Assembly: GCA_022561055.1 (NCBI GenBank)
Contig: JADFRY010000002.1
Span: 54,064-118,063, forward strand
Length of the DNA: 64,000 nucleotides
Source: Nanobdellota archaeon
GTDB lineage: Archaea > Nanobdellota > Nanobdellia > Pacearchaeales > GW2011-AR1
Direction: 5' to 3'
Shown: positions 55,869 through 59,282 of the stretch, one piece after another
Layout: each line of letters starts with the position of its first letter
Position numbering within the stretch: the stretch's first letter is position 1
The notes under the pieces: model-generated
The model's database searches: none
Seen by the model: only the letters and a program-made list of their open reading frames with translations
What the model was told of the DNA's origin: nothing
Position numbers and translations under genes: made by a program

Positions 55869-58800
55869 ATGCCAGAAATAATAAAAAAACAAGTTAAAGC
55901 TTTAAAATTTAGTTTGATTAGTCCGGCGCAGATAAAAAAAATTAGTGCTGCCAAGGTTGTTACTCCTGAGCTCTATGATATTGACGGTTTCCCTGTTGAT
56001 GGAGGTATTATGGACTTGCGTTTAGGAGCTATTGACCCTGGAGTCAGATGTAGAACCTGCGGCGGGAGATTAAAAGAATGTCTAGGACATGTTGGAAGTA
56101 TTGAACTTGCTCGGCCAGTTATTCATATAAAATATGTTCCTTTGATTGAATTATTTTTGAGAAGTTTTTGTCATAAGTGTGGAAAACTTATGTTGGAAGA
56201 AGAAAAACAGAAAAAATTTGGTCCTGCTGAGAGCGCTAAAAAGGCTAGAGATAAAAAAAGATGTCCATATTGTAATGAAGTCCAAGAGAAAATTAAACTT
56301 GAGAAGCCAAATTTATTCTCCATGGGGAAAAAAAGAATATTCCCTAATGAAATAAGAGAGATGCTTGTTACAATTCCTGATGAGGAAGCTAGGAAAATTG
56401 GAGTAAATCCTAAAACATGCAGACCAGAGTGGGCAATTCTTTCTCTGTTGTTAGTACCGAGTGTTATTGTAAGACCTTCAATTACTTTAGAAACAGGAGA
56501 AAGGAGCGAAGATGATCTAACCCATAAGTTATCTGATATTATTAGAGCTAATCAAAGATTGTGGGAAAATTTGAATGCTGGAGCGCCGGAAGTAATTATT
56601 GAAGACTTATGGGATTTATTACAGTATCATATTACAACATTTTTTGATAATAATATTTCTAGAATACCACCAGCAAGACACAGGTCAGGACAGCCATTGA
56701 AAACAATAACTGAAAGAATTAAAGGTAAAGAAGGGAGGATTAGAAAGAACTTAGCTGGAAAAAGAGTTAACTTTTCTGGCAGAACAGTCGTTTCTCCAGA
56801 GCCTGCTCTCAACATTAATGAAGTTGGAGTTCCATTAGAAGTTGCAAAAATTATTACTGTTGCTGAGGCAGTAACAACTACAAATTTAGAATTTATTAAA
56901 AAGATTATTATAAATGGACGTGAAAAACATCCTGGAGCCAACTATGTTATTAGACCGGATGGAAAGAGAAAGAGAATTACCGAAGATCTAAAAGAGGAGC
57001 TTTGTGATGAAATCCAGCCAGGATATAAAGTTGAAAGACATTTACGGGACGGCGACGTTGTTCTTTTCAATAGACATCCATCTTTGCACAAACAAAGTCT
57101 TATGGCTCATTATGTAAGAGTCCTACCAGATAGAACATTTAAAATACATCCAACTGCTGCTTTCCCTTATAACGCGGATTTTGATGGAGATGAAGTCAAT
57201 ATACACTCTCCTCAGACAGAAGAGGCAAGGTCTGAAGCAAAAATTCTTTTAGATATTAAAAATAATATTATTTCTTCTAAGAATAATATAAATCTTGTTG
57301 GATGTATTGCAGATGCTATAACCGGCTCTTACATTTTAGGAAAAGAAAAATTTGATAAGCCAGACGCAGATCAGTTACTGTTTTCTGCAGGAGTCATCAA
57401 TAGTTTGAAAGGTAAAGAAATCTCTGGTATAAATCTGTTTAGTCAAATATTACCTAAAGAAGCTAATATAAAAATGCCTTCGGAAATCTTAAGTAAAAAT
57501 ACATTAGGGTCGGAAGATGGCGAGATGGTTAAGATATTGGACAAAAATTGCGGAAGAGAAGCAACACTTGAATCTATAAGAAGAGCATTCTCCCTCGGGA
57601 CAATTTACTTATCTAGAAGAGGATATACGCTTTCGTTGAGAGATTTGGATGTTTCAGAAAAAGTCAAGAAAATAACTAGGGAAGTTATAGAAGAAGCTGA
57701 GAAAAAAACTAAAGAAATAATAAAAGATTCAGAAATTGGAAAATTAGAGATAATTCCAGGAAAAAGTATTGAAGAGTCAAGAGAAGTCAAGATTTCTAAA
57801 GTATTGAATGAGATAAGGTCAAATGTTGGTCAGATTGTTCAGAGTCATTTTCCAAAAGAAGGAAACGTTAGTAAAATGATTGCTGCCGGAGGAGGCGGAA
57901 GTATATTAAACATTACTCAAATTGGTTGTTGTGTTGGACAGCAAATTTTATGGAATGAACGAATTAGTTTTGGCTACACAGGAAGAACTCTTTCTTTTTT
58001 TGAGAAGGGAGATATAAAAGCGGAATCACGCGGGTTTATAAAATCGTCTTTTTTCGATGGTTTGAAGCCCAGTGAGTTTTTCTTCGGAGCCATTACAGGA
58101 AGAGATGCCCTCATGGACACTGCTTTAAGGACACCTAAATCAGGATATCTTTACAGGAGATTAGTTAGCGCCTTACAAGATTTGAAATTAGAGTATGATG
58201 AAACAGTAAGAGATGCTTCTGGCAACATAATCCAGTTCTTATACGGTGGTGATGGATTGGATGTATCCGCTTTGCATTTAAATAAAAAAGTTTGTCCCGG
58301 CGAAGCTGTTGGAGTTATCACAGCCCAATCATTTGGAGAAGCTTCAACACAAATGGTCTTAAATGTATTCCACTCTGCAGGTGTTGCTGAAATGCAGATT
58401 ACACTCGGATTGCCAAGGTTAATTGAGATTTTTGATGCAAGAAAACAACCATCTACTCCATCAATGGAAATTTATCTTGACAGAGAACATAATAATGAAA
58501 ATGATGCAAGAGTTATTGCAGAAAAAATTAAAGAAGTAAAAGTAGAAGGGATTGCTTCTGAAATAAAGATTGATTTTTCTGGAAAGAAGATTGAGATAGA
58601 GTTGGACAATGCTGCCTTAAAAACAGTTCACGTCGGGGTGCAAAAAATAGTTGACAGACTAAATGAAAAAGGATTTAAAGTTAAAAAGAGAAACATAAAG
58701 ATTAGTTTAAATGTTTTGGATATGGACTTTAAATCTATTTACAAATTAAAAGGAAAACTAAGAAAAACAATTATATCTGGAATTAAGAATATCAATCAAG

Positions 58801-59282
58801 TTATTGTTGCTAAGAGAGAAAAAGAGTTTGTTATTTTAACTTCGGGAAGTAATTTGCGAGATATTATGGAAATAAAGGGGGTCAATAAAGATAGAGTGGT
58901 TACGAATAATATTCATGAAGTTGCAGATGTTCTCGGTATTGAGGCGGCAAGACAAGCGATTGTAAATGAAGTAAAAAAAGTTCTTGAAACTCAAGGTTTA
59001 GATATTAATTTTAGACATCTTGATTTGATTGCCGATGCAATGACGTCTTCTGGAGTTGTTAGAGGGGTTACACGAATGGGAATTATATCTCATAAATCGA
59101 GTATTTTTGCACGGGCTGCATTCGAAACTCCTGATAAACAATTTATTAATGCAACTATACAAGGAAAAAAAGATGAGTTGGCTTCAGTGATTGAAAATAT
59201 TATACTTAATCAACCGGTTCCCGTCGGTACAGGCTTGCCCGGCTTGCTTGTTAAAGTCACAGGTCCTTTGGTTAGGAAGTGA
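55869..59282 (+). CDS. rpoA: RNA polymerase subunit A, single polypeptide covering A' and A'' regions
   Basis: One ORF contains the N-terminal zinc motif (CRTCGG...CLGH), NADFDGDE, the bridge helix ([17 protein letters not shown]) and the trigger-loop block normally at the A'' N-terminus ([30 protein letters not shown]). Confidence 0.95.
   Translation: [1137 protein letters not shown]

What the first reader, a model, noticed from the sequence alone, without database searches (positions are those of the whole stretch)
55869..59282. RpoA encoded as one fused A'+A'' polypeptide (1137 aa)
Seen in sequence: a single uninterrupted ORF carries the A' hallmarks (zinc motif, NADFDGDE, bridge helix [17 protein letters not shown]). 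About 50 residues later it carries the trigger-loop block that normally opens the separate A'' subunit ([30 protein letters not shown] ... [14 protein letters not shown]). Established knowledge: the A'/A'' split is regarded as a near-universal archaeal trait, whereas bacteria and eukaryotes have a single beta'/Rpb1. The fused protein is also shorter than typical A' plus A'' combined, so the usual A' tail and A'' head appear to be deleted. Together with the unsplit rpoB and the inserted cassette, this makes the RNAP operon architecture atypical.
Basis: partly seen in the sequence, partly recalled or inferred. Interest (0 to 1): 0.6.

Follow-up and report, generated by a model that had tools for sequence, protein, structure and literature searches.

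The report
Fused RNA polymerase A gene, Pacearchaeota
This tiny DPANN archaeon really does make the largest RNA polymerase subunit from one gene instead of the usual archaeal two, but its whole order (Pacearchaeota-type) does the same and the fusion was already noted in print in 2017, so it is a lineage marker and not a discovery.

Summary
Window 55869..59282 (+) is one stop-free 1137-aa ORF. It carries all five Rpb1 Pfam domains, and it matches both the NCBIfam A' and A'' models.

The seam lies at residues ~800-809. Compared with solved archaeal polymerases, about 25 residues of the A' tail and 57-59 residues of the A'' head are missing. Compared with yeast Rpb1, residues 882-1048 (the foot region) are absent.

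It is not an artefact:
- 197 of 201 genomes of the same order carry the same stop-free seam.
- Contigs from two other studies cross the seam without gaps.

All sampled genomes of the class outside the order (about 170, 61 families) have separate A' and A'' genes. On an A' tree the 14 fused sequences form one clade (support 100) nested among 42 split ones. The simplest account is a single in-frame deletion across the old gene boundary in the ancestor of the order.

Da Cunha et al. 2017 (PMC5484517) already report "a secondary fusion in Pacearchaeota". The finding is therefore already known and of low interest.

One side result: the unsplit rpoB here is also derived. Its B''/B' boundary flips between split and fused at least five times among the sampled relatives.

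The parts
55869..59282 (+). Fused rpoA (Rpo1): single 1137-aa ORF equivalent to A' + A''
55869..58268 (+). A'-equivalent part (residues 1-800): Rpb1 domains 1-4 and the start of domain 5
   Evidence: Aligns to T. kodakarensis A' up to residue 880 of 906 and to S. solfataricus A' up to residue 855 of 880. In split relatives the A' match ends at query residue 800-803.
56049..56090 (+). N-terminal zinc motif C61-x2-C64-x6-C71-x2-H74
   Evidence: Read from the translation. C61, C71 and G73 are invariant in 60 homologues.
57171..57194 (+). Catalytic NADFDGDE (residues 435-442)
   Evidence: A436, D437, D439, G440 and D441 are invariant, N435 and E442 nearly invariant (at least 90%) in 60 homologues
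58098..58178 (+). Bridge helix (residues 744-770)
   Evidence: aligns to yeast Rpb1 ~820-846
58266..58295 (+). Fusion seam (residues ~800-809, [10 protein letters not shown]). It replaces ~25 aa of A' tail plus ~57-59 aa of A'' head.
   Evidence: Contigs from two other studies cross it without gaps.
58287..59282 (+). A''-equivalent part (residues 807-1137): trigger loop, jaw, C-terminal cleft/clamp
   Evidence: Aligns to A'' chains starting at chain residue 58-63; TIGR02389 match.
58296..58445 (+). Trigger-loop block PGEAVG...FHSAGV...[14 protein letters not shown] (residues 810-859)
   Evidence: aligns to yeast Rpb1 1049-1151 region; the H835 of FHSAGV is invariant
51888..52094 (+). rpoH (Rpo5), first gene of the operon
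   Evidence: PF01191, E 8e-16
52116..55358 (+). rpoB, unsplit, 1080 aa
53556..53573 (+). Former B''/B' boundary inside rpoB (residues ~481-486, ELGL|DNDKEK), read through here
   Evidence: tblastn against split relatives; surveys
55367..55865 (+). Two small ORFs (99 aa and 65 aa) between rpoB and rpoA. They are not part of the fusion.
   Evidence: no Pfam hit. By coordinate arithmetic, they are absent from the close relatives G179, G112 and G126.

Best explanation
The gene encodes a single-chain largest subunit (Rpo1) of the archaeal RNA polymerase. It arose once, in the ancestor of the window's order (Pacearchaeota-type Nanoarchaeia), from adjacent rpoA' and rpoA'' genes. An in-frame deletion removed the last ~20-25 codons of rpoA', the stop/start junction and the first ~45-58 codons of rpoA''. 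What was lost is the small module that occupies the place of the eukaryotic Rpb1 'foot', between the bridge helix and the trigger loop. A linker of ~6-10 residues now joins the two halves. All catalytic elements are kept: the zinc motif, NADFDGDE, the bridge helix and the trigger loop with its His. The enzyme should therefore work as an ordinary archaeal RNAP with one fewer polypeptide to assemble. Shown here: the fusion, the deletion boundaries, the clade-wide distribution, and a single origin nested among split forms. Inferred: that the mechanism was one deletion event, and that the missing module is dispensable.
For: One stop-free ORF with Rpb1 domains 1-5 and both the A' and A'' models. 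Seam mapping on solved structures: the A' match stops at residue 880 of 906 (T. kodakarensis) and 855 of 880 (S. solfataricus); the A'' match starts at chain residue 58-63; yeast Rpb1 882-1048 has no counterpart. An alignment with 11 split relatives of the same class shows the gap running from just after GDGxDVS to just before KVxPGEAVG. Indel map. Distribution: more than 120 protein clusters of 1122-1161 aa at 71-80% identity. Among the 30 nearest relatives, every complete hit is a single frame, across 8 of the order's 9 sampled families. 197 of 201 genomes of the order, and 98 of 100 genera, have one stop-free match across the seam. 80 full-length loci are kept out of 566 relatives in public genomes, labelled Pacearchaeota, Nanoarchaeota or Woesearchaeota. 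Outside the order, the roughly 170 sampled genomes of the class are split, and real stop and start codons were read in 11 loci. Tree of 56 A' parts: the 14 fused rows form one clade (SH-aLRT 100), needing one change, and the clade is sister to a 27-row split clade (support 98). Independent contigs from two other studies cross the seam without indels. Literature: 'a secondary fusion in Pacearchaeota' (PMC5484517).
Against: No protein-level evidence exists. Nobody has shown that a ~128 kDa single chain is present in the enzyme or that it stays uncleaved. A single deletion event is the simplest account, but stepwise shrinking followed by stop loss cannot be excluded. One unrelated family (G049, locus L011) has a shortened but still split boundary. 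The tree holds no outgroup from outside the class. The AlphaFold2 model was too poor to test seam geometry (mean pLDDT 57, below 50 over residues 670-848).
Confidence: 0.9

Rival explanations
1. Assembly or sequencing artefact. A stop/start junction, or a stretch of sequence between A' and A'', was collapsed in this metagenome-assembled genome.
For: The window comes from a fragmented genome of 20 contigs, 86% complete. No raw reads of the source sample were available; only Logan contigs of related samples could be laid.
Against: The same seam, with the same length and no stop, occurs in 197 of 201 genomes of the order, some on contigs of 400-885 kb. Contigs from two other studies cross window 58266-58295 without gaps: X2 record 9 and X4 record 19.
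Confidence: 0.01
2. Retained primitive state. The short, unsplit, foot-less form is ancestral, as in bacterial beta'. On this view the split with its tail/head module arose later in the other lineages.
For: Unsplit A exists in Thaumarchaeota and Korarchaeota and has been argued to be ancestral for Archaea (PMC5484517). Earlier AI notes raise this idea for Micrarchaeota (unchecked).
Against: On the A' tree the fused clade is nested. It is sister to a 27-row split clade, with further split lineages branching below, including a 490,885-bp single-contig genome. All 61 sampled families of the class outside the order split at the same homologous position. A primitive unsplit state would therefore need many identical independent splits.
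Confidence: 0.05
3. Horizontal replacement. The ancestor of the order acquired an already fused rpoA from another lineage with an unsplit gene (Micrarchaeota, Thaumarchaeota or a mobile element).
For: Other DPANN lineages are reported to have similar fused, shortened genes (earlier AI notes; not tested here).
Against: The A' part is most similar (52-55% identity) to split A' genes of its own class, and groups with them at support 98. The gene sits in the conserved rpoH-rpoB-rpoA-nusA-rps12-rps7 context.
Confidence: 0.03

Closest known systems
Secondarily fused RNA polymerase subunit A of Pacearchaeota (Da Cunha et al. 2017, PLoS Genet, PMC5484517, main text and S29 Fig)
   Same: Same lineage (homologues are named Candidatus Pacearchaeota). 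Same gene and same feature: A' and A'' in one polypeptide, interpreted as a secondary fusion.
   Different: None in kind. This window is one more member. The paper gives one sentence and an alignment figure. It does not, in the text I could read, quantify the distribution or describe the loss of the tail/head module.
Canonical split archaeal Rpo1N/Rpo1C (A'/A''), e.g. T. kodakarensis 4QIW chains A and C, S. solfataricus 2PMZ chains A and C, P. furiosus 8CRO
   Same: Same domain order and same catalytic motifs. E 1e-239 to A' chains and 1e-78 to 1e-82 to A'' chains.
   Different: One polypeptide instead of two. About 25 residues of the A' C-terminus and 57-59 residues of the A'' N-terminus are missing. 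There are smaller deletions after residues 123 and 534.
A-type (unsplit) RpoA of Thaumarchaeota and Korarchaeota
   Same: A single gene for the largest subunit in an archaeon (PMC4084955; PMC5484517).
   Different: A different lineage and probably a different history: argued to be ancestral there, clearly derived here. Whether those proteins keep the inter-domain module was not examined here.
Eukaryotic Rpb1 and bacterial beta'
   Same: Single-chain largest subunit. Yeast Rpb1 aligns on both sides of the seam.
   Different: Rpb1 carries a ~167-residue foot (882-1048) where this protein has ~8 residues. There is no CTD.

Membership tests
Archaeal RNA polymerase largest subunit (Rpo1 = A' + A'') | Rpb1 domains 1-5 in order | tested here: met
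   PF04997, PF00623, PF04983, PF05000 and PF04998 all score above their cut-offs.
Archaeal RNA polymerase largest subunit (Rpo1 = A' + A'') | Catalytic NADFDGDE, bridge helix, and trigger loop with His | tested here: met
   Positions 435-442, 744-770 and 810-859. These residues are invariant or nearly invariant (at least 90%) in 60 homologues.
Archaeal RNA polymerase largest subunit (Rpo1 = A' + A'') | Equivalog-level match to the archaeal A' and A'' models | tested here: inconclusive
   NF006336 (A') scores 1015 bits against a cut-off of 819, so it is met. TIGR02390 scores 984 against 1042, and TIGR02389 (A'') 388 against 420, both just below cut-off. This is expected for a fused and shortened protein.
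Archaeal RNA polymerase largest subunit (Rpo1 = A' + A'') | Operon context rpoH-rpoB-rpoA-...-nusA-rps12-rps7 | tested here: met
   rpoH (PF01191) and rpoB lie upstream; a NusA-like KH protein lies downstream.
Secondarily fused rpoA of Pacearchaeota (Da Cunha 2017) | A' and A'' parts in one reading frame with no stop or start at the boundary | tested here: met
Secondarily fused rpoA of Pacearchaeota (Da Cunha 2017) | The organism belongs to the Pacearchaeota lineage | tested here: met
   The nearest homologues and loci are named Candidatus Pacearchaeota or Nanoarchaeota. Same-order genomes share the seam.
Secondarily fused rpoA of Pacearchaeota (Da Cunha 2017) | The fusion is derived, i.e. nested among split relatives | tested here: met
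   Class survey; stop codons read directly; tree with one change and support 100.
A-type unsplit RpoA of Thaumarchaeota/Korarchaeota | Phylogenetic affinity to those lineages | tested here: not met
   The sequence groups with split A' genes of its own class. No Thaumarchaeota sequence was included in the tree, so this test is indirect.

The most novel reading that the evidence does not exclude
The gene boundaries of both large RNAP subunits are evolutionary hot spots in Nanoarchaeia, and they behave differently. The rpoA boundary was lost once, irreversibly, together with the foot-equivalent module, and that state is fixed in a whole order. This is a clean synapomorphy and natural evidence that the module is dispensable. 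The rpoB B''/B' boundary, by contrast, has flipped between split and fused at least five times among 55 sampled genomes, by changes as small as one stop codon. I found the rpoB lability described nowhere. If it holds, the rpoB split should not be used as a rare genomic change marker, and these lineages offer natural split-versus-fused pairs for studying RNAP assembly.
Probability: 0.55. Interest if true: 0.35.

Novelty: already known. Interest (0 to 1): 0.18.

Why it matters
The A'/A'' split has been used as a rare genomic change to root and order the archaeal tree. It therefore matters where secondary fusions occur. This window is one more example of the Pacearchaeota fusion already published in 2017.

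What the follow-up adds is modest:
- The fusion is fixed throughout the order and has a single origin.
- It went together with loss of the ~75-residue module at the position of the eukaryotic Rpb1 foot.
- The neighbouring rpoB boundary is much more labile.

For annotation, such genes should be named Rpo1 (A'+A'' fused) and not 'subunit A'', the name many records now carry.

Tried and rejected
1. AlphaFold2 model of the 1137-aa protein from a 60-sequence alignment. Mean pLDDT was 57 and pTM 0.34, with the seam region 670-848 below 50. The model is unusable for seam geometry, so I ran no fold search.

2. The 'open_frame_aa' column of the genome search suggested unsplit genes of 1188-1304 aa in seven genomes outside the order. 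Reading the DNA showed real TAA, TAG or TGA stops followed by ATG. In those genomes A' and A'' merely share a frame. They are not fusions.

3. I asked whether the short but still split boundary of G049 (L011) is an intermediate on the way to the fusion. The tree places it in a different clade, so it is an independent shrinkage.

4. I asked whether loss of the foot-like module goes with loss of Rpo6. It does not: PF01192 is present in 19 of 21 relatives, and the two without it are 61-71% complete.

5. The search for related loci with an alignment, meant to obtain outgroups from other phyla, returned only the same clade.

6. Papers on archaeal RNAP structure and subunit evolution say nothing usable about the A'/A'' boundary module.

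7. The S29 figure of Da Cunha et al. is held only as a legend.

Full report
**Observation.** The ORF is exactly as described: window 55869..59282, plus strand, 1137 codons, ATG start, no internal stop. The quoted motifs are at these residues:
- NADFDGDE at 435-442
- bridge helix [17 protein letters not shown] at 744-760
- PGEAVGV at 810-816
- [14 protein letters not shown] at 846-859

Pfam finds Rpb1 domains 1 to 5 in order. NCBIfam matches the archaeal A' model (NF006336, 1015 bits, cut-off 819). It also matches the A'' model over residues 802-1123, which is profile 35-361 of 367.

The context is a normal archaeal RNAP operon:
- rpoH (51888-52094, PF01191)
- rpoB (52116-55358)
- two small unknown ORFs
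- the fused rpoA
- a NusA-like KH protein, then rps12, rps7 and EF-2

**Where the seam is and what is missing.** Against solved structures, the A' chains align only up to residue 880 of 906 (T. kodakarensis 4QIW_A) and 855 of 880 (S. solfataricus 2PMZ_A). The A'' chains align only from chain residue 58-63 onward. So about 25 residues of the A' tail and 57-59 residues of the A'' head have no counterpart. About 8 residues ([10 protein letters not shown], window 58266-58295) stand in their place.

Yeast Rpb1 aligns as 719-881 and then 1049-1151, so the segment 882-1048 is absent. From established knowledge of Pol II structure, that segment is the foot region.

An alignment with 11 split relatives of the same class puts the gap from just after GDGxDVS to just before KVxPGEAVG. 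The fused proteins are about 100 residues shorter than A'+A'' of those relatives (1137 against 1181-1301 aa). Three deletions account for this: the main one at the seam, and smaller ones after residues 123 and 534.

**Not an artefact, and not rare.**
- A protein search returns more than 120 clusters of 1122-1161 aa at 71-80% identity and 98-100% coverage. Several sit on contigs of 400-885 kb. Where named, they are Candidatus Pacearchaeota or Nanoarchaeota.
- Among the 30 nearest genomes, every complete hit is one frame of 1133-1203 aa, across 8 of the order's 9 sampled families.
- I searched 201 genomes of the order with residues 718-904, which span the seam. 197 genomes (98 of 100 genera) give one stop-free match of the same length.
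- A scan of public genomes finds 566 relatives. The 80 kept all cover the full length.
- Contigs assembled from two other studies' samples cross the seam without indels.

**Derived, with a single origin.** In a 201-genome sample of the class, the roughly 170 genomes outside the order (61 families) have A' matches that end at query residue 800-803, in frames of about 840-930 aa.

A caution about the tool: for seven of these genomes it reported open frames of 1188-1304 aa. The DNA shows a real TAA, TAG or TGA followed by ATG. There, A' and A'' only share a reading frame.

I built a maximum-likelihood tree of 56 A' parts, 14 fused from 9 families and 42 split from 40 families. The fused sequences form one clade (SH-aLRT 100), which needs a single change of state. 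That clade is sister to a 27-row split clade (support 98), and further split lineages branch below. One of those lower lineages is a 490,885-bp single-contig genome whose A'' is not next to A'.

The simplest reading is one in-frame deletion across the rpoA'/rpoA'' junction in the ancestor of the order. A shortened but still split boundary exists in an unrelated family (G049). On the tree it is not the sister of the fused clade.

**Comparison with what is known.** Da Cunha et al. 2017 state that archaeal subunit A exists as an A-type in Thaumarchaeota and Korarchaeota and as an A'A''-type elsewhere. They add that 'a secondary fusion' happened 'in Pacearchaeota' (PMC5484517). The Thaumarchaeota case is also in PMC4084955. 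The finding is therefore already known, and the premise that the split is near-universal is out of date.

Earlier notes of this scan reach the same verdict for another Pacearchaeota window. They also report similar fusions in Micrarchaeota. I verified the first independently and did not test the second.

**Function.** All catalytic elements are retained and conserved in 60 homologues. Rpo6, which contacts the foot region in Pol II, is still encoded in 19 of 21 relatives.

I therefore expect an ordinary archaeal RNAP in which the two halves of Rpo1 are covalently linked and a small surface module is gone. This is inference; there is no protein-level evidence. An AlphaFold2 model was too poor to examine the seam (mean pLDDT 57).

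**Side result on rpoB.** I surveyed the B''/B' boundary (P0002 residues ~481-486).
- Most of the class is split, into B'' of about 495-520 aa and B' of about 603-615 aa.
- All 156 genomes of the window's family that gave a match (of 157 sampled, the window's own included) are unsplit.
- Other families of the order are mixed. Unsplit: f2, f8, f9, and some of f4 and f5. Split: f3, f6, f7, most of f4, and at least one f5 genome.
- One genome (G028) differs from the fused state by a single in-frame TAA.
- On the A' tree the rpoB state needs at least five changes among 55 genomes.

So rpoB is fused here too, but through a labile boundary and without a deletion. This contrasts with the fixed rpoA fusion.

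**Verdict.** The structural interpretation is supported, and the claim of novelty is not. The finding is already known and of low interest.

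Noticed in passing
window 52116-55358 (boundary at 53556-53573): The unsplit rpoB is itself a derived fusion at the old B''/B' boundary. Most of the class is split. All f1 genomes that gave a match (156 of 157 sampled, the window's own included) are unsplit. Other families of the order are mixed, and one relative differs by a single in-frame TAA. At least 5 state changes are needed among 55 genomes on the A' tree.
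   Followed up: partly
window 55367-55865: Two small ORFs (99 aa basic, 65 aa acidic) lie between rpoB and rpoA and have no Pfam hit. Coordinate arithmetic suggests that the close relatives G179, G112 and G126 have rpoB and rpoA directly adjacent, and G086 has a gap of ~250 nt. The cassette therefore looks like a recent insertion in this genome. It is the subject of separate finding e1-2783324.
   Followed up: partly
L011 (G049:C28, family f27): An unrelated family of the class has a strongly shortened but still split A'/A'' boundary (A' 833 aa plus A'' 348 aa; '...ILKE* CC MEKAKP', with an in-frame TGA). It also has an unsplit rpoB. This is an independent shrinkage of the same module.
   Followed up: partly
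Genome search output: The 'open_frame_aa' column can span a stop codon between two in-frame adjacent genes. Examples are G213 at 1304 aa and G177 at 1139 aa. It should not be read as proof of a fused ORF without looking at the DNA.
   Followed up: yes
window 59367-59606: The 79-aa ORF between rpoA and the NusA-like gene sits where rpl30e usually lies, but it has no Pfam hit at E <= 0.01.
   Followed up: no
L014 (G040:C1, 490,885-bp single contig): In this very small genome of the same class, only A' lies in the 6-kb locus. A'' is not adjacent, so the two halves are unlinked there.
   Followed up: no
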